From the UHGV virus genome UHGV-0248979: DNA of 64,000 nt; one strand, written 5' to 3'. The notes under the pieces are model-generated. The model did not search any database. It saw nothing but the letters and a program-made list of their open reading frames with translations, and was not told where the DNA came from. Made by a program: the position numbers and the translations under genes. Origin of the DNA: a virus. Below, one piece after another: positions 2,398-37,852 of the stretch. Position 1 is the first letter of the stretch; each line of letters opens with the position of its first letter.

Positions 2398-2423
2398 CTC
2401 TCACCTAAGTAATATATATCTGA
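2398..2423 (-). promoter_or_regulatory. conserved promoter-like motif, copy 1 (candidate phage early promoter)
   Basis: Plus-strand CTCTCACCTAAGTAATATATATCTGA; on coding strand TCAGATATATATTACTTAGGTGAGAG, 48 nt upstream of start at 2349. Confidence 0.45.
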
Positions 2424-2462
2424 GAAAAAATAAAATATAGGTACCACCGTTGGGTGGTACCT
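2424..2462 (-). terminator. intrinsic terminator
   Basis: Hairpin GGTACCACC-GTTG-GGTGGTACC preceded by A-rich run; downstream of tmk stop. Confidence 0.6.
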
Positions 2463-3826: not shown

Positions 3827-4198
3827 TTAGAACCCCTCAAGAACAGCTTTCACAAATTCGTAAACCGTGCGTCGGTGTTCTTCAAGCGGATAAACAAACT
3901 TAGAATAATCGTTGTTCCAGACAACCGGATAGAGGTCGCCATCACAACTTAAATAGCTCTTACGAACCATGTAATAATCTAAACCTACACGGAAGTTTAA
4001 CGACAGACTACCGTGTTTACTACAAACGTGTAGCTGGAGCGATTTCACACCGTCGTGAGTTGGCGATTCAATCGTTTCCGCATACAATACATCCGAACAC
4101 TGTTCTATAGCGCTAACGACATCTCTGAGGTTGTTGTCTGCATCGATGGTCGCTTTTCGGAGAGCGTCGGTGTATTGCTGAAGTTCTCGATAGAACAT
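3827..4198 (-). CDS. hypothetical protein
   Basis: 123-aa ORF; AGGAGA SD 8-9 nt upstream of ATG at 4198; overlaps 3' end of upstream gene. Confidence 0.45.
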   Translation of the reverse strand: MFYRELQQYTDALRKATIDADNNLRDVVSAIEQCSDVLYAETIESPTHDGVKSLQLHVCSKHGSLSLNFRVGLDYYMVRKSYLSCDGDLYPVVWNNDYSKFVYPLEEHRRTVYEFVKAVLEGF

Positions 4199-27157: not shown

Positions 27158-27261
27158 GTCTGGGGAGCTTCGGCTCCCCCTATAACCCCTTATGCGTCTC
27201 GAAAAGCAAAAAAAAACAGAAGGCTATTAATTATGAACGGAAAACAACTACCGAACTAAGT

Positions 27262-27290
27262 AGGGGGTGTTGCTACCACCCCCTTTATTA
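27262..27290 (+). terminator. hairpin plus T-run (H3-type)
   Basis: GGGGGTG-TTGCTAC-CACCCCC followed by TTTATT; ~105 nt downstream of the plus gene stop and abutting small ORF copy 1 stop. Confidence 0.5.
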
Positions 27291-27299
27291 GTTAGTAAC

Positions 27300-27461
27300 T
27301 TATCTCCTTAGAGGTGGTTGCTGAACATTGTGGTTGTTAACCGTTTTCGGTGCCGCAACGAGGCCGAGACGAACATATTCGTCCATGCGTTGGTTAAACT
27401 GAATTTGTTTTTCACGATTTCGCATCGCGGTATTGAACATCTGTATTTGATATTCGTTCAT
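27300..27461 (-). CDS. small protein, copy 1 of a tandem paralogue family (53 aa)
   Basis: Below ORF-track size cutoff. MNEYQIQMFNTAMRNREKQIQFNQRMDEYVRLGLVAAPKTVNNHNVQQPPLRR; AAAGG SD upstream; H3-type hairpin right after the stop. Confidence 0.4.
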   Translation of the reverse strand: MNEYQIQMFNTAMRNREKQIQFNQRMDEYVRLGLVAAPKTVNNHNVQQPPLRR

Positions 27462-27520
27462 TTTTCATTACCTTTCGTAATGTTGTAAAAACGTCAACAA
27501 CTTTATGTGTTGACACCGTA

Positions 27521-27610
27521 CAGCAGAGACTGGCGGAACAGCCTCTGCTGCTTTAACTTCTCTTTCGAAAAGTTAAAGCTATGAAAAGGGGTGGTGGTGC
27601 ACCCCTTTTT
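27521..27610. repeat. three-hairpin module, copy A (candidate structured RNA / regulatory element)
   Basis: H1 27521-27550 (CAGCAGAG...CTCTGCTG), H2 27550-27579 (GCTTTAACTT-loop CTCTTTCGAA-AAGTTAAAGC), H3 27584-27609 (AAAAGGGGTG...CACCCCTTTT). Confidence 0.45.
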
Positions 27611-27685
27611 ATTATACCTACGACCACCATCTCGGCAGGTTACTGTACGAGGAGGAGAGGCGTGTCAGCGCCTCTCCTTTATTTG

Positions 27686-27859
27686 TTAGTAGTGTTCACT
27701 CCTCTTTTCGGTGAATATCTGCGTGAAACGGTTGGTAGACGGTTTTAACCGTTTATCCATGCCGAGCTGACTATACTTGTAGATACGTTGCTGTAAATTG
27801 GTCTTTGCTGCACTCTGTTCTGCAAGCATTTTGTCAGTAAAGTAGTAACCATTGTTCAT
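27686..27859 (-). CDS. small protein, copy 2 of tandem paralogue family (57 aa)
   Basis: MNNGYYFTDKMLAEQSAAKTNLQQRIYKYSQLGMDKRLKPSTNRFTQIFTEKRSEHY; AAGAGGG SD upstream; hairpin 27654-27677 right after stop; shares C-terminal consensus with copy 3. Confidence 0.45.
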   Translation of the reverse strand: MNNGYYFTDKMLAEQSAAKTNLQQRIYKYSQLGMDKRLKPSTNRFTQIFTEKRSEHY

Positions 27860-27949
27860 GGTAGGCCCTCTTTGTAGGGTGATTAAAGAAATCCACTACG
27901 GAAACGTAATGGTGTTGTAAAGGGGTGTGACAGCACCCCTTTATTTTAT

Positions 27950-28120
27950 TTAGTAGTTACTTCTCCTTTCGGTGAAGATTTGTACTCGAGGATTATTAGA
28001 AGGTTTAAGCCTTTTATTTAATCCTAGCTGTTGAACTTCTCTTAATCGTTCATTAAACCTCGCTTGTTCTGCATAGCTGTTTGAAATAGAAGTAAAGATA
28101 CGTGAATTGTTGTTAGTCAT
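27950..28120 (-). CDS. small protein, copy 3 of tandem paralogue family (56 aa)
   Basis: MTNNNSRIFTSISNSYAEQARFNERLREVQQLGLNKRLKPSNNPRVQIFTERRSNY; GAGG SD upstream; hairpin 27919-27942 right after stop. Confidence 0.45.
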   Translation of the reverse strand: MTNNNSRIFTSISNSYAEQARFNERLREVQQLGLNKRLKPSNNPRVQIFTERRSNY

Positions 28121-28175
28121 GTTAAAACCTCACACGAGTTGGGGATTAAGCTATTACGTGACTGTAATAGCGACA

Positions 28176-28264
28176 AGTAGGGACTGCTGGTACAGCCCCT
28201 ACTGCTTTATCTTCTCTTTCGAAAAGATAAAGCGCCTAAGGGGAGTGCGCCAACACACCCCTTT
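28176..28264. repeat. three-hairpin module, copy B
   Basis: H1 28176-28203 (AGTAGGG...CCCTACT, loop ACTGCTGGTACAGC), H2 28204-28233 (GCTTTATCTT-same loop-AAGATAAAGC), H3 28238-28264; same order and spacing as copy A with compensatory stem changes. Confidence 0.45.
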
Positions 28265-28270
28265 AGGTTG

Positions 28271-28321
28271 TTACCTTCTTTCAACTATCAACTGGATGTT
28301 TCTTGGGTATGCAACCTTGGG
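28271..28321 (-). pseudogene. decayed fourth copy of the small-protein family (C-terminal remnant)
   Basis: Minus frame ending at stop 28271-28273 reads ...PKVAYPRNIQLIVERR, matching the family C-terminus (PRVQIFTERR); no in-frame start, upstream frames disrupted; stop abuts an H3-type hairpin. Confidence 0.3.
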
Positions 28322-28449
28322 CTACGTTAACGTTGGTCGCGGTATTGCACTAACCCTTCGCTGAAACTCAAGTTGTTTTGTTGACAACTCGTTTAACCGT
28401 CGAAACAGCAGTTCATGTTTCGTGAACTCATCTCCTATGTCGAATTTGC

Positions 28450-28493
28450 GAAAATAAATAAAGTGTACCCCTAATCCCGAAAAGGATTAGGGG
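28450..28493 (-). terminator. intrinsic terminator
   Basis: CCCCTAATCC-CGAAAA-GGATTAGGGG preceded by A-rich run; immediately downstream of stop at 28500. Confidence 0.6.
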
Positions 28494-28499
28494 TTGCTT

Positions 28500-29315
28500 T
28501 TATTTAGTCGCTACGTATTGAACATGGCCACATTCCTTACATTCCACGTTGGCTTTCGGGATTGTCAGGCCGGTTAAAGGAACACGTATTTGATACTGTG
28601 CTCCACATTCTTCACAAACAAAATCGTATTCTGGATAAACACGACCTTCTAATTTCTCTTCTTTCCTTAGTGTGCCTGCTAAGAACAGCATTGCGCCTAA
28701 CGCTTCATTAATCTGCTGTTCCCATTCTCCGTCTAACGGGTAAGCGAACGCGCGAGTCAACGTTTCCACCATCTCTGGAGTATTACTTACATAAACGTGT
28801 TTCAGTTCAAACTCAACACGTTCTAAACCAAACAATACGCGCGCCGTCACCGTAACATTATCCAACGTTTGTGCAAACACAACGGGATTATCGTCACCGT
28901 GCATTGCGAATAACGCAGCACGTTCGTATTCGATATCACTCCACTCGATTAGTTCTACAGATTTAATCGCTTCCGCAATCTCAGCATTACCGAACGTTTC
29001 GTGTTCCAATAATCCGACGATAACTTCATTCAACGATTTCAATTGCTGTAATCGAATCGTAGGATCGGTATTCACGATAAGTAAACGATGCATTCTGGAT
29101 TTCAACCAGTTAATCGTTCCTTCTACACCGCCCCTAAACGAGCAGATGCTTATCACTTCAGGTTCACGAAGGATAAGAGTAGATTTTCCTGCTGCCGTAC
29201 TCAAGTAGAGTTTAAAAGACTTATCGTTAGACTCTGCAACGATGGCAATGTCTTCAGTTGGAACGAAGTTTTCATTGCTCAGCCCACGCGGAAAATAATC
29301 TTTAATAGTAATCAT
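28500..29315 (-). CDS. hypothetical protein with C-terminal CxxC...CxxC zinc ribbon and degenerate P-loop
   Basis: 271-aa ORF; C-terminus CEECG...CKECG; N-terminal LSTAAGKST resembles a non-canonical Walker A; terminator directly downstream. Confidence 0.5.
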   Translation of the reverse strand: MITIKDYFPRGLSNENFVPTEDIAIVAESNDKSFKLYLSTAAGKSTLILREPEVISICSFRGGVEGTINWLKSRMHRLLIVNTDPTIRLQQLKSLNEVIVGLLEHETFGNAEIAEAIKSVELIEWSDIEYERAALFAMHGDDNPVVFAQTLDNVTVTARVLFGLERVEFELKHVYVSNTPEMVETLTRAFAYPLDGEWEQQINEALGAMLFLAGTLRKEEKLEGRVYPEYDFVCEECGAQYQIRVPLTGLTIPKANVECKECGHVQYVATK

Positions 29316-29369
29316 CTTTTATGCTCCAATTAATAAAAAAATTAAGGGCACCCGAAGGTGCCTTATACA

Positions 29370-29513
29370 TTAACCACGACCAGTGCACTGTGCAACGGAA
29401 TTACCGTTGTCGATGCAAGTGTCGTAGCCTTTGTCGATATCCAGGTACAGGCAACCCAGAACAACAGCGATAACAACAGCGAAGATAGCTTTTTTGTGTT
29501 TTACAGAAATCAT
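29370..29513 (-). CDS. small lipoprotein (47 aa precursor)
   Basis: Below track cutoff. MISVKHKKAIFAVVIAVVLGCLYLDIDKGYDTCIDNGNSVAQCTGRG: signal peptide with lipobox VLGC; AGGAG SD 8 nt upstream; terminator downstream; conserved promoter-like motif upstream. Confidence 0.5.
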   Translation of the reverse strand: MISVKHKKAIFAVVIAVVLGCLYLDIDKGYDTCIDNGNSVAQCTGRG

Positions 29514-29558
29514 GATATAACTCCTAATTAGGTATTCGATAAATGAGTATTACGTAAA

Positions 29559-29584
29559 CTCTCACCTAGGTAATATATATCTGA
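29559..29584 (-). promoter_or_regulatory. conserved promoter-like motif, copy 2
   Basis: Plus-strand CTCTCACCTAGGTAATATATATCTGA, 45 nt upstream of the lipoprotein start (29513). Confidence 0.45.
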
Positions 29585-29702
29585 AATCTTTTTGAATCCA
29601 TATACCCTCTAGAACGCTCTAAAACGCATTCTAACGCAATTTTCTTTTTAAAGGGTAATTAGTCGTCTTAATGGAGAAATGACTTCTGTGTGGCGTTTAG
29701 GG

Positions 29703-29748
29703 ATAAATAAAAGGTATTCCCGTTACCCACAGAGGTAACGGGAAGTTT
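29703..29748. terminator. hairpin terminator
   Basis: 11-bp stem TTCCCGTTACC...GGTAACGGGAA with A-rich and T-rich flanks; adjacent to stop at 29749. Confidence 0.6.
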
Positions 29749-30549
29749 TTACAGACCTTGCATCTTATCCATTACAGCGATTTCAGGATCGCTAATGCCC
29801 GTCTTCGAAGAAATCATAAAGCGCTTATCGCTAATAGCTTCTACGGATTCGCGAATAAACAATGACTTTTCTTCCGCAACAGGAAGAATAGAATCGTTAT
29901 CCTGCGGACCCACAAGCTGGCAACTGAAAGGTACATAGCTGTTGAAGGTCACATAAGGACCTAACTGCAAGACCGGATACACTTCATTGAAGTTATTTGA
30001 TGTGCCACTGTCTGTAGAAATAACAGAATAGCGCACCACCGCACGCACAGCCGTGGTATATTCAGGGTCGCGGGCTTCACCCACTACGGTAAAACGAAAC
30101 GCATTGAAGTCATAGTCTTCCGACTCACTAAAGTGTGAAGGGAGAATACGTTCAATATACTGAGGATAGGTTTCCTGTTGCCCTGGGGTAACCGCTGCAG
30201 CCAATTTCTGAGCATAGAAGTAACAATAAGCAAAGCCGTATTGCGCTTCTAAAGCACCAGACACCACAGCAGTTGTGATCGCGTGCAGGAACAACAAATG
30301 ACCTAACGTCCCTTTTTCTTCGATTGATAATAAGCGACAATTCTGTACACCGTCTACGGTATAGATAACAGAAATCGTTTTGTCAGCACTGGACGCCATG
30401 ATGTAATCCAACTGGCGTTGTTCGCCACCAGGAATAACATTAAGGCAACGTTCTAACAACTTCGACGGTTTCGAAAAATTCTCTTCTTCGAATTTGTCGA
30501 TTTGAATTAACGTTTGACCAGACATTCTGAAAGTAAGTAGATTACTCAT
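29749..30549 (-). CDS. hypothetical protein
   Basis: ORF 29749-30555 in track (TTG start); ATG at 30549 preceded by AAGGA preferred; terminator downstream. Confidence 0.5.
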   Translation of the reverse strand: MSNLLTFRMSGQTLIQIDKFEEENFSKPSKLLERCLNVIPGGEQRQLDYIMASSADKTISVIYTVDGVQNCRLLSIEEKGTLGHLLFLHAITTAVVSGALEAQYGFAYCYFYAQKLAAAVTPGQQETYPQYIERILPSHFSESEDYDFNAFRFTVVGEARDPEYTTAVRAVVRYSVISTDSGTSNNFNEVYPVLQLGPYVTFNSYVPFSCQLVGPQDNDSILPVAEEKSLFIRESVEAISDKRFMISSKTGISDPEIAVMDKMQGL

Positions 30550-37814: not shown

Positions 37815-37838
37815 CCCACCTAGGTAATATATATCTGA
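37815..37838 (-). promoter_or_regulatory. conserved promoter-like motif, copy 3
   Basis: Plus-strand CCCACCTAGGTAATATATATCTGA, 51 nt upstream of ATG 37763; flanking CAAGTCG / TAAAGAG / ATTGTA blocks shared with copy 1. Confidence 0.45.
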
Positions 37839-37852
37839 AATTATTTTTAATC

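What the first reader, a model, noticed from the sequence alone, without database searches (positions are those of the whole stretch)
29370..29513. Unannotated 47-aa lipoprotein gene behind a promoter-like motif
A small ORF with strong SD, signal peptide, lipobox VLGC and three cysteines in the ~27-aa mature part lies between a terminator and the conserved motif. Small early phage lipoproteins are typical of superinfection-exclusion or receptor-masking factors; an outer-membrane spanin is an alternative.
Basis: partly seen in the sequence, partly recalled or inferred. Interest (0 to 1): 0.45.

Follow-up and report, generated by a model that had tools for sequence, protein, structure and literature searches.

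The report
Small early jumbo-phage envelope peptide gene
This is a real 47-codon early gene of a giant Salmonella/Erwinia-type phage; it encodes a tiny membrane-tethered peptide facing the periplasm, its relatives are already catalogued without a function, and the lipoprotein signal seen here is missing from more than half of them.

Summary
The ORF is real and sits where stated, on the minus strand (29370-29513). It has an AGGAG ribosome-binding site, a phiKZ-type early promoter motif 64 nt upstream and a hairpin plus T7 terminator 8 nt downstream. It is the orthologue of SPN3US gp66 (PHROG 8574, function unknown). Homologues occur in 63 SPN3US-like jumbo-phage records, annotated "hypothetical protein" in nearly all of them.

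The gene is under purifying selection: over the last 19 codons pS is 0.5-0.87 and pN is 0.11-0.20. The conserved part is the C-terminal DY.C..NGNS...CTGRG. AlphaFold models it as a helix-turn-helix in which the two invariant cysteines could form a disulfide staple.

The lipobox cysteine is not conserved. It is present in 18 of 40 distinct family sequences and replaced by V, S, A, T or others in 22. On a neighbour-gene tree it appears in at least three separate clades.

The "lipoprotein" reading is therefore plausible for this phage but does not define the family. The constant feature is an exported, membrane-tethered periplasmic mini-hairpin made early. The spanin reading is rejected. Superinfection exclusion remains untested speculation. 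There is no homology to Llp, Cor, entericidin, MgrB or any solved structure. Interest is modest.

The parts
29370..29513 (-). 47-aa ORF including the TAA stop. Orthologue of SPN3US gp66 and member of PHROG 8574.
   Evidence: ORF. phrog_8574 match at E=3.4e-23 over 47/47 profile positions. tblastn homologues in 61-63 phage records. Purifying selection shown.
29454..29513 (-). Codons 1-20. Positively charged n-region (K5, H6, K7, K8) followed by a 12-residue uncharged h-region ending in V-L-G. This is either a signal peptide or the N-terminal part of a signal anchor.
   Evidence: Sequence. Pattern test. The longest stretch free of charged or strongly polar residues runs from A9 to L24, only 16 residues. 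Charged residues sit N-terminal to it and acidic residues (D25, D27, D31, D35) C-terminal, which favours an N-in/C-out orientation.
29451..29453 (-). Cys21 codon (TGC), the candidate lipid-modified cysteine. This position varies between lineages.
   Evidence: Cys in 18 of 40 distinct family sequences; V, S, A, T, W, I or L in the other 22. The Cys state is found in three separate clades of a neighbour-gene tree.
29373..29429 (-). Codons 29-47: the conserved periplasmic mini-domain G/D-Y-x-x-C-x-x-N-G-N-S-x-x-x-C-T-G-R-G, with invariant Cys33 and Cys43.
   Evidence: C33, G37, S39, C43, T44, G45 and R46 are invariant in 31 sequences. pS is 0.5-0.87 against pN 0.11-0.20, and invariant residues are encoded by several synonymous codons. 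AlphaFold2: pLDDT 85, helix 4-35, turn 36-39, helix 40-44.
29521..29525 (-). Shine-Dalgarno sequence AGGAG, 7 nt upstream of the ATG.
   Evidence: Read from the sequence. Homologues carry AAGGAG or AAGGA at the same distance.
29562..29586 (-). Early-promoter-type motif TTTCAGATATATATTACCTAGGTGA. The core TATATTAC lies at 29570-29577, 64 nt before the ATG.
   Evidence: Three copies in the window against 0 in shuffles. Each copy lies in an intergenic region just after a hairpin, and two of the three lie upstream of a co-oriented start codon; downstream of the third was not read to a start codon. Conserved upstream of the operon holding the homologue in 13 of 15 relatives, with a variant in Wellington. 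It matches predicted early-promoter motifs published for phiKZ, 201phi2-1, OBP and N1M2 (PMC7058600 Table 2; PMC7598289).
29335..29362 (-). Terminator-like hairpin GGCACC-UUCG-GGUGCC followed by CUUAA-U7, beginning 8 nt after the stop codon.
   Evidence: Found by the terminator scan and read. In a 51-nt context it folds at -12.2 kcal/mol, z = -1.6, so it is not remarkable on energy alone.
29717..29744 (-). Terminator-like hairpin that closes the preceding transcription unit (the 268-aa gp65 homologue). Together with the downstream hairpin it makes the 47-aa gene look like a monocistronic unit.
   Evidence: The hairpin position is conserved in relatives.
29605..29637 (-). Three 10-nt phased repeats (GCGTTAGAAT, GCGTTTTAGA, GCGTTCTAGAGGG) upstream of the promoter. 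Role unknown; possibly a regulatory element specific to this promoter.
   Evidence: Read. The block is conserved in 8 phages, with invariant GCGT...AG.GCGT. Only one exact match in the window.

Best explanation
This is the window phage's orthologue of SPN3US gp66 (PHROG 8574), a 47-residue early-gene product of an SPN3US-like, phiKZ-related jumbo phage.

Shown:
- It is a conserved coding gene under purifying selection.
- It has a strong ribosome-binding site.
- It sits alone between an early-promoter-type motif and a terminator-like hairpin.
- The family consists of a basic N-terminus, one hydrophobic segment, and an almost invariant 19-residue C-terminus with two invariant cysteines.

Inferred:
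- The virion RNA polymerase transcribes the gene immediately after DNA injection.
- The hydrophobic segment inserts N-in/C-out, so the C-terminal helix-turn-helix is displayed in the periplasm and stapled by a Cys33-Cys43 disulfide.
- In this phage the tether is most likely a lipid-modified Cys21. The signal would be a type II signal peptide with lipobox V-L-G-C, and Leu at +2 would predict outer-membrane sorting.
- In more than half of the relatives the same position is V, S, A or T. There the tether must be the uncleaved helix, or the peptide is released by signal peptidase I at the same site.
- The conserved hairpin, not the anchor, is therefore the working part.
- It most likely acts by binding a target conserved across Enterobacterales envelopes, or across incoming related phages. 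That would make it an early envelope-takeover or exclusion-type function. This last step is the least supported.
For: Real gene:
- PHROG 8574 match at E=3.4e-23 over the full length.
- Homologues in 61-63 phage records spanning Seoulvirus, Machinavirus, Erskinevirus and Wellingtonvirus.
- Whole-gene dN/dS is 0.14-0.65. In the C-terminal 19 codons pS is 0.5-0.87 against pN 0.11-0.20, and invariant residues use 2-4 synonymous codons.

Early expression:
- The motif matches published predicted early-promoter motifs of the phiKZ group.
- It has 3 copies in the window against 0 expected.
- It is conserved upstream of the homologous operon in relatives.

Topology and hairpin:
- Lys/His-rich N-terminus and acidic C-terminal side.
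- AlphaFold2 with 31 sequences gives pLDDT 85, helix 4-35, NGNS turn and helix 40-44.
- C33 and C43 are invariant.

Lipobox in this phage:
- The relaxed PROSITE-type pattern passes.
- The uncharged segment is only 16 residues long and is followed by two Asp.
- Within the family, Cys co-varies with lipobox-compatible neighbours. Position -1 is Ala or Gly in 17/18. Position +2 is Ser, Ala or Gly in 15/18. Phe at -2 occurs in 1/18, against 14/22 in non-Cys members.
- UniRef's automatic name for the Kwan homologue is "Lipoprotein".

Anchor interchangeable:
- Cys is absent in 22/40, and the Cys state appears in three separate clades.

Only constant gene of a variable early island:
- SPN3US gp67-gp70 have no match in the window, and the neighbouring genes differ between relatives.
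Against: - No experiment or signal-peptide predictor (LipoP, SignalP) could be run. The strict lipobox pattern fails because position -2 is Leu.
- AlphaFold models one unbroken helix through Cys21.
- MgrB, also 47 aa with a lipobox-like Cys, was concluded not to be lipidated because an N-terminal GFP fusion stayed uncleaved and functional (PMC2789325).
- The covariation counts are not phylogenetically independent.
- If lipidated forms go to the outer membrane and helix-anchored forms stay in the inner membrane, one common target is harder to imagine.
- The promoter class is assigned by motif similarity only. No transcript mapping exists for this phage group in the literature I could reach.
- Nothing here bears directly on the biological function.
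Confidence: 0.6

Rival explanations
1. The product is an unprocessed bitopic inner-membrane micro-protein. Cys21 is simply a residue inside a transmembrane helix, as in most relatives. The protein acts in the inner membrane the way MgrB acts on PhoQ: through its helix plus the disulfide-stabilised periplasmic tail, it binds a host inner-membrane protein such as a sensor kinase, a divisome or transport component, or a membrane-bound defence sensor.
For: - 22 of 40 family members have no Cys at this position, and their hydrophobic run is 18-22 residues, long enough to span the membrane.
- AlphaFold predicts a continuous helix 4-35.
- One member (P0006) has Cys preceded by Val, which is not a lipobox.
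- MgrB has the same size and layout, including a lipobox-like Cys and two essential periplasmic cysteines. It is an inner-membrane protein concluded not to be lipidated (PMC2789325; PMC8404706).
Against: - In the window protein the uncharged run is only 16 residues.
- Cys co-varies with lipobox-compatible residues at -2, -1 and +2.
- There is no homology to MgrB. Pfam gives no hit.
Confidence: 0.28
2. The product is an Llp/Cor-type superinfection-exclusion lipoprotein. It would be an outer-membrane lipoprotein that binds the periplasmic face of the phage's own receptor and blocks further adsorption or DNA entry.
For: - Small size, early-type promoter, lipobox-like Cys and a disulfide pair.
- T5 Llp is likewise a small early lipoprotein with a lipid anchor on Cys1 and a Cys11-Cys58 disulfide (PMC9586334).
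Against: - No similarity to any Pfam, PHROG or NCBIfam family other than PHROG 8574.
- The lipid anchor is missing in most orthologues.
- The mature part would be 27 aa against 61 aa for Llp.
- The gene is not next to a receptor-binding or tail-fibre gene. Its neighbours are the gp65 homologue, a 271-aa protein of unknown function and the DnaB helicase.
- The hairpin is nearly identical in phages of Salmonella, Erwinia, Escherichia and Proteus, which are unlikely to share one receptor.
Confidence: 0.08
3. The product is an outer-membrane spanin subunit (Rz1-like) that acts in the last step of lysis.
For: - Small putative lipoprotein with cysteines.
- A weak PHROG hit to an Rz-like spanin family, phrog_4297, at E=0.04.
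Against: - The weak hit covers residues 4-37, essentially the hydrophobic segment, and is to an i-spanin-type family.
- No adjacent or embedded partner gene, endolysin or holin nearby.
- The promoter motif is of the early type, and the gene forms a monocistronic unit.
- The lipobox Cys is absent in 22/40 orthologues, which is incompatible with an outer-membrane spanin.
Confidence: 0.02
4. The product is a membrane-active toxic peptide of the Hok/Gef or holin/antiholin type. It would perturb the inner membrane by depolarisation, lysis timing or host shut-off, rather than bind a specific partner.
For: The layout resembles Hok-type peptides as I recall them: about 50 aa, one hydrophobic helix and a periplasmic tail with cysteines. 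This rests on my own knowledge and was not tested here.
Against: - No Pfam hit to Hok/Gef or to holin families.
- Conservation is concentrated in the periplasmic hairpin, while the hydrophobic segment is variable. A pore-former would show the opposite pattern.
- Early depolarisation would harm a phage with a long infection cycle.
Confidence: 0.04

Closest known systems
SPN3US gp66 (SPN3US_0066, YP_009153360) and its homologues; PHROG 8574 (unknown function)
   Same: - Full-length profile match at E=3.4e-23.
- Same length.
- Same position between the gp65 homologue and the DnaB helicase.
- Same early-promoter motif upstream.
- Identical CTGRG C-terminus and Cys-x9-Cys spacing.
   Different: - Only 45-60% identical to most relatives.
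- The window protein has Cys21 (lipobox VLGC), where SPN3US has Val.
- It has two extra Asp (D25, D27) and Gly29 in place of the usual Asp.
- In the window it is a stand-alone promoter-gene-terminator unit. The translationally coupled downstream genes of SPN3US (gp67, gp68) are absent.
T5 Llp and T1/phi80 Cor superinfection-exclusion lipoproteins
   Same: Small phage proteins made early, exported, with a lipid anchor on the first mature Cys and an internal disulfide. They act from the periplasmic side (PMC9586334).
   Different: - No detectable sequence or profile similarity.
- The mature part is less than half the size of Llp.
- The lipid anchor is not conserved in the family.
- The gene is not linked to a receptor-binding-protein gene.
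- No exclusion phenotype is known.
MgrB (47-aa inhibitor of the PhoQ sensor kinase in Enterobacterales)
   Same: - Same length.
- N-in single hydrophobic helix containing a lipobox-like Cys.
- Periplasmic tail of about 20 residues with two cysteines 9-10 residues apart that are essential for activity.
- The same ambiguity between type I signal, type II signal and membrane anchor was noted by its discoverers (PMC2789325; PMC8404706).
   Different: - Host-encoded, not phage-encoded.
- No homology: hhalign probability 20% over the hydrophobic segment only, and no Pfam hit.
- The target of the phage peptide is unknown.
Rz1-type outer-membrane spanin subunits
   Same: Very small putative lipoproteins with cysteines, encoded by phages of Gram-negative hosts.
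   Different: No i-spanin partner, no lysis cassette, an early-type promoter, and a lipobox that is dispensable in orthologues.
phiKZ-group early (virion RNA polymerase) promoters
   Same: The core TATATTAC is identical to the phiKZ motif. The extended TTTCAGATA...TATTAC...GGTG matches the motifs listed for 201phi2-1, OBP and N1M2 (PMC7058600). It is intergenic and co-oriented with downstream genes.
   Different: Transcription starts have not been mapped in this phage group. At this one promoter an additional conserved block of phased GCGT repeats lies upstream.

Membership tests
PHROG 8574 / SPN3US gp66 family | Full-length match to the family profile | tested here: met
   E=3.4e-23, residues 1-47 against profile positions 1-47 of 47.
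PHROG 8574 / SPN3US gp66 family | Invariant C-terminal motif C-x9-C-T-G-R-[GS] at the very C-terminus, preceded by N-G-[NH]-S | tested here: met
   The window has CIDNGNSVAQCTGRG at its C-terminus. The motif is invariant in 40 distinct sequences and occurs only once in the six-frame translation of the window.
PHROG 8574 / SPN3US gp66 family | Conserved genome position: same strand as, and downstream of, the gp65 homologue, and before the divergently oriented DnaB helicase, within an operon headed by the early-promoter motif | tested here: met
Bacterial lipoproteins (Lgt/LspA substrates; PROSITE PS51257-type rule, recalled from established knowledge) | Lys or Arg in the first 7 residues, at least 6 uncharged residues before the lipobox, and Cys between positions 15 and 35 | tested here: met
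   K5 and K7; A9-G20 uncharged; Cys21.
Bacterial lipoproteins (Lgt/LspA substrates) | Canonical lipobox [LVI][ASTVI][GAS]C | tested here: not met
   V-L-G-C has Leu at -2. The strict pattern fails for every family member; only the relaxed PROSITE-type pattern passes.
Bacterial lipoproteins (Lgt/LspA substrates) | Lipobox Cys conserved among orthologues | tested here: not met
   Cys in 18 of 40 distinct sequences, with at least three separate clades carrying it. Where Cys is present, positions -1, +2 and -2 are lipobox-compatible.
Bacterial lipoproteins (Lgt/LspA substrates) | Diacylglyceryl modification and globomycin-sensitive cleavage | not testable with these tools
   Needs labelling and inhibitor experiments. 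LipoP and SignalP are not available here.
Outer-membrane spanin (Rz1-like) | Partner i-spanin gene adjacent, overlapping or embedding, within a lysis cassette | tested here: not met
   The neighbours are PHROG 8163, PHROG 10180, PHROG 3245 and DnaB. No overlapping partner ORF is conserved.
Outer-membrane spanin (Rz1-like) | Obligatory outer-membrane lipid anchor in all orthologues | tested here: not met
   22 of 40 lack the Cys.
Llp / Cor superinfection-exclusion lipoproteins | Sequence or profile similarity to the family | tested here: not met
   No Pfam, PHROG or NCBIfam hit other than PHROG 8574 at E<=10. No relative among solved structures.
Llp / Cor superinfection-exclusion lipoproteins | Blocks adsorption or DNA entry of the same or related phages when expressed | not testable with these tools
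   Needs plating and adsorption assays.
MgrB family (Pfam accession recalled as PF13998) | Profile match | tested here: not met
   No Pfam hit. hhalign probability is 20% and covers the hydrophobic segment only.
Entericidin EcnA/EcnB small lipoproteins (Pfam accession recalled as PF08085) | Profile match | tested here: not met
   No hit for six family members at E<=10. The resemblance I recalled (GNS motif, about 45-aa lipoprotein) did not hold up.
phiKZ-group early promoters (virion RNA polymerase) | AT-rich conserved motif with core TATATTAC, repeated in the genome, intergenic, upstream of co-oriented genes | tested here: met
   Published motifs are in PMC7058600 and PMC7598289.
phiKZ-group early promoters (virion RNA polymerase) | Transcripts start a few nt downstream of the motif within minutes of infection, independently of host RNA polymerase | not testable with these tools
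   Needs 5'-end mapping and time-course RNA-seq. I found none for SPN3US-like phages.

The most novel reading that the evidence does not exclude
The family could be a previously unrecognised class of jumbo-phage early effector. It would be a periplasm-displayed, disulfide-stapled mini-hairpin of about 20 residues, conserved in all SPN3US-like phages, whose membrane anchor has switched repeatedly between a lipid anchor and a helix or signal-peptidase-I form. It would bind a conserved Enterobacterales envelope component, for example to exclude superinfecting phages or to blind an envelope-based defence or stress sensor, during the vulnerable first minutes before the phage nucleus is built.
Probability: 0.2. 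Interest if true: 0.55.

Novelty: new member of a known kind. Interest (0 to 1): 0.3.

Why it matters
Early genes of phiKZ-related jumbo phages are mostly uncharacterised. Very few are known to act outside the cytoplasm.

This gene is the only constant element of an otherwise hypervariable early-gene island. It has its own early promoter and a nearly invariant periplasmic tip across phages of four host genera. That makes it a cheap and well-defined candidate for an envelope-directed takeover or exclusion function.

The repeated switching of the anchor is also a tidy natural experiment on whether lipid and helix anchors are interchangeable for a small periplasmic effector.

For annotation, it is a caution. 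A lipobox hit in a 47-aa protein should not be turned into "lipoprotein" without checking orthologues; UniRef already labels one member that way.

Tried and rejected
- **Entericidin EcnA/B lead** (recalled similarity of a GNS motif in a small lipoprotein): no Pfam hit for six members. Rejected.
- **MgrB homology:** hhalign probability is 20% over the hydrophobic segment only. Kept only as an architectural analogy.
- **Spanin:** only a weak hit to an Rz-like i-spanin PHROG through the hydrophobic segment. The genomic context argues against it. Rejected.
- **NCBIfam, solved-structure sequences and Foldseek against PDB:** nothing significant. The best Foldseek E-value is 4.6. Viscotoxin and helical-hairpin toxin matches are far below significance.
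- **First word-indexed protein search:** found only one 98% identical protein. The exhaustive phmmer search and a profile search were needed to recover the family.
- **Plus-strand antisense ORFs** (29358-29531 and 29321-29473): considered as alternatives, but the substitution pattern fits the minus-strand frame.
- **Literature on SPN3US gp66 and SPN3US transcript or proteome timing:** nothing specific found. The infection proteome paper, PMC6384053, is not held.
- **Terminator energy:** the downstream hairpin alone is not statistically remarkable, z = -1.6.
- **SPN3US gp67-gp70:** no counterpart in the window, so no conserved partner gene can be proposed.
Full report
**What is in the sequence**

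On the minus strand, 29513 to 29370, there is an ATG...TAA ORF of 47 codons: MISVKHKKAIFAVVIAVVLGCLYLDIDKGYDTCIDNGNSVAQCTGRG.

- AGGAG lies 7 nt before the ATG, at 29521-29525.
- Sixty-four nt upstream is the core TATATTAC of a 25-nt motif, TTTCAGATATATATTACCTAGGTGA (29562-29586).
- Eight nt after the stop codon is a GGCACC-UUCG-GGUGCC hairpin followed by CUUAA-U7 (29335-29362).
- A second hairpin (29717-29744) closes the preceding gene. The ORF therefore looks like a self-contained promoter-gene-terminator unit.

Three points qualify it. An ORF of this size is not evidence by itself: 45 ORFs of at least 25 aa overlap this 4-kb stretch. A relaxed lipobox pattern is not evidence either, because seven other spurious small ORFs in the window match it. 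The hairpin's folding energy is unremarkable (z = -1.6).

**Where the window comes from**

The window belongs to a jumbo phage related to Salmonella phage SPN3US and the Erwinia phages of Machinavirus, Erskinevirus and Wellingtonvirus.

- Conserved genes are about 75-79% identical at the DNA level, and no close record exists.
- The neighbours are a DnaB-type helicase, a phiKZ-type major capsid protein and virion proteins.
- A 26-kb contig from a public sequencing run carries a 98% identical copy of the ORF with the same flanking genes.

**Is it a gene?**

Yes.

- The protein matches PHROG 8574 (unknown function) over its whole length at E=3.4e-23.
- tblastn finds homologues in 61-63 phage records. 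They are annotated "hypothetical protein" in nearly all of them; in a few records no feature lies under the match. In SPN3US the homologue is gp66, SPN3US_0066.
- I took 15 homologous loci and compared codons. Whole-gene dN/dS is 0.14-0.65.
- In the last 19 codons, synonymous differences are near saturation (pS 0.5-0.87) while non-synonymous ones are rare (pN 0.11-0.20). Invariant residues are written with two to four synonymous codons. This pattern fits the minus-strand frame and not the antisense ORFs.

**What is conserved and what is not**

I combined the phage loci with an exhaustive phmmer search of 1.84 billion representatives and a profile search of 5.8 billion proteins. This gave 40 distinct family sequences.

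All are 45-51 residues long. Each has a short basic N-terminus, one hydrophobic segment, and an almost invariant tail D-Y-[ND]-x-C-x-x-N-G-N-S-x-x-x-C-T-G-R-G that ends the protein. In a 31-sequence alignment C33, G37, S39, C43, T44, G45 and R46 are invariant.

The cysteine that makes the lipobox is not conserved. It is present in 18 sequences and replaced by V (9), S (6), A, T, W, I or L in 22, including SPN3US itself.

On a neighbour-joining tree of the adjacent 268-aa gene, the Cys state appears in three separate clades:
- the window;
- ChrisDB, Caitlin and pEa9;
- Wellington and Kwan.

Sister lineages of these clades lack it. The anchor type has therefore switched several times.

**Is the window protein a lipoprotein?**

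For:
- K5, K7 and K8, a 12-residue uncharged stretch, then V-L-G-C with Cys at position 21. This satisfies the relaxed PROSITE-style rule.
- The uncharged run is only 16 residues and is followed by two Asp, which is short for a membrane span.
- Within the family, Cys travels with lipobox-compatible neighbours. Position -1 is Ala or Gly in 17/18. Position +2 is Ser, Ala or Gly in 15/18. Phe at -2 occurs in 1/18, against 14/22 where Cys is absent.
- UniRef's automatic name for the Kwan homologue is already "Lipoprotein".

Against:
- The strict lipobox pattern fails because of Leu at -2.
- One member has Val-Cys, which is not a lipobox.
- AlphaFold draws a single helix through the site.
- The covariation counts are not phylogenetically independent.
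- There is an instructive precedent. MgrB is also 47 residues, and its discoverers noted possible type I and type II signal cleavage sites. They concluded it is an uncleaved inner-membrane protein (PMC2789325).

I put the lipoprotein reading for this particular phage at somewhat better than even. I reject it as a property of the family.

One further observation: non-Cys members often carry A-F-A or x-F-G immediately before the same position. That looks like a signal peptidase I site. The switch may therefore be between two cleaved forms rather than between a lipid anchor and a helix anchor. I could not test this.

**The conserved tip**

AlphaFold2 with the 31-sequence alignment gives mean pLDDT 85. 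It models a helix from residue 4 to 35, a turn at N-G-N-S (36-39) and a short helix at 40-44. The two invariant cysteines lie on the two helices either side of the NGNS turn, where a disulfide could staple the hairpin. The model's coordinates were not returned, so the Cys-Cys distance is not known.

The charge distribution (basic N-terminus, acidic C-terminal side) predicts N-in/C-out. The hairpin would then sit in the oxidising periplasm. This step is inferred, not shown.

No solved structure or known family resembles it:
- Pfam, NCBIfam and PDB sequence searches give nothing.
- The best Foldseek E-value against PDB is 4.6.

The only hit outside the phage family is a 381-aa metagenomic protein with four tandem copies of Y-[ND]-x-C-I-G-N-G-[NA]-[ST]-x-x-Q-C. 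This suggests the Cys-x9-Cys unit is a small autonomous module. Its Pfam hit to thionins is below the cut-off.

**When it is made**

The upstream motif has the core TATATTAC reported for phiKZ. Its extended form matches the predicted early-promoter motifs of 201phi2-1, OBP and N1M2 (PMC7058600). In this phage group such motifs mark early operons read by the virion RNA polymerase (PMC7598289).

- The window holds three copies against none in shuffles. Each lies just after a hairpin in an intergenic region, and two of the three lie ahead of a co-oriented start codon; the sequence downstream of the third was not read far enough to show a start codon.
- In 13 of 15 relatives the same motif heads the operon that contains the homologue, at 64 to 1334 nt from it. 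Wellington has a variant; Kwan and pEa11 gave no exact core match and were not inspected.
- The genes between motif and homologue differ from phage to phage.
- SPN3US gp67-gp70 have no counterpart in the window.

The 47-aa gene is therefore the constant member of a variable early-gene island. Early timing is an inference from motif class. I found no transcript mapping for SPN3US-like phages.

**How it most likely works**

I commit to the following. The gene encodes an early, exported, membrane-tethered peptide whose working part is the conserved disulfide hairpin. The hairpin binds something conserved across Enterobacterales envelopes or across incoming related phages. The anchor only keeps it at the membrane and can be a lipid (likely here) or a helix.

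The near-identity of the tip in phages of Salmonella, Erwinia, Escherichia and Proteus argues against a strain-specific receptor. It therefore also argues against a strict Llp-type mechanism.

Which process is affected is unknown. Candidates are exclusion of superinfecting phages, protection of the wall, interference with an envelope sensor or defence system, and cell division.

**Rivals**

- An uncleaved MgrB-like inner-membrane regulator: 0.28.
- An Llp/Cor-like receptor-masking lipoprotein: 0.08.
- A membrane-toxic peptide: 0.04.
- A spanin: 0.02.

**Comparison with the known, and verdict**

It is a member of the SPN3US gp66 / PHROG 8574 family, and all three defining features tested were met. 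It is not a member of the Llp/Cor, Rz1, MgrB or entericidin families, because profile tests were not met. It resembles Llp in lifestyle and MgrB in architecture.

The finding is a correct piece of gene-finding and a reasonable but over-specific functional guess. Novelty is a new member of a catalogued family of unknown function. Interest is modest (0.3). It would rise if the peptide proves to be an envelope-directed early effector.

Noticed in passing
window 29605-29637 (minus strand): There are three 10-nt phased direct repeats (GCGTTAGAAT, GCGTTTTAGA, GCGTTCTAGAGGG) about 20-50 nt upstream of the early-promoter motif. The block (invariant GCGT...AG.GCGT) is conserved at the homologous promoter in 8 phages. 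It is not found at the other two promoter copies of the window. It may be a regulator binding site specific to this promoter.
   Followed up: partly
window 2401-2425 (-) and 37816-37840 (-): There are two further copies of the early-promoter motif. Each lies immediately after a strong hairpin plus T-run. They mark other probable early transcription units.
   Followed up: partly
window 27686-27859 (-) and 27950-28120 (-): Two paralogous small ORFs (57 and 56 aa) share a C-terminal QLG.[DN]KRLKPS.N...QIFTE.RS..Y and are each flanked by hairpins. They occupy the position of the paralogous pair SPN3US gp71/gp72 (48 aa each, ...IKGLGGEI...) but are not obviously homologous to them. Neither has a PHROG hit.
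   Followed up: partly
protein P0007 (381 aa, metagenomic; not in the window): It carries four tandem copies of Y-[ND]-x-C-I-G-N-G-[NA]-[ST]-x-x-Q-C, the same Cys-x9-Cys unit as the phage peptide. The repeats follow an N-terminal region with several hydrophobic segments. A weak Pfam hit to plant thionin is below the cut-off.
   Followed up: partly
window 27160-29750, compared with loci L001-L015: The stretch between the gp65 homologue and the DnaB helicase is a hypervariable early-gene island. Gene content differs in almost every relative; some carry a small gene annotated "putative DNA ligase", others 2-5 unrelated small genes. SPN3US gp67-gp70 have no tblastn match in the window.
   Followed up: partly
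window 28500-29315 (-): The 271-aa gene just downstream of the terminator ends in a double CxxC motif (CEECG...CKECG), a zinc-ribbon-like tail. It has only a weak PHROG 10180 match and no early-promoter motif of its own.
   Followed up: no
family alignment, position 18-21 (loci L001, L004, L009, L012 etc.): Members without the lipobox Cys often have A-F-A or x-F-G immediately before the same position. This fits the -3/-1 rule of signal peptidase I. The family may alternate between two kinds of cleaved signal peptide rather than between a lipid anchor and a helix anchor.
   Followed up: partly
locus L002 4042-4272 (Erwinia phage ChrisDB gp83): The annotated start of the gene downstream of the homologue overlaps the 47-aa gene by 49 nt. 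A TAATG stop-start overlap at about 4088-4092, as in SPN3US, looks like the more likely start.
   Followed up: no
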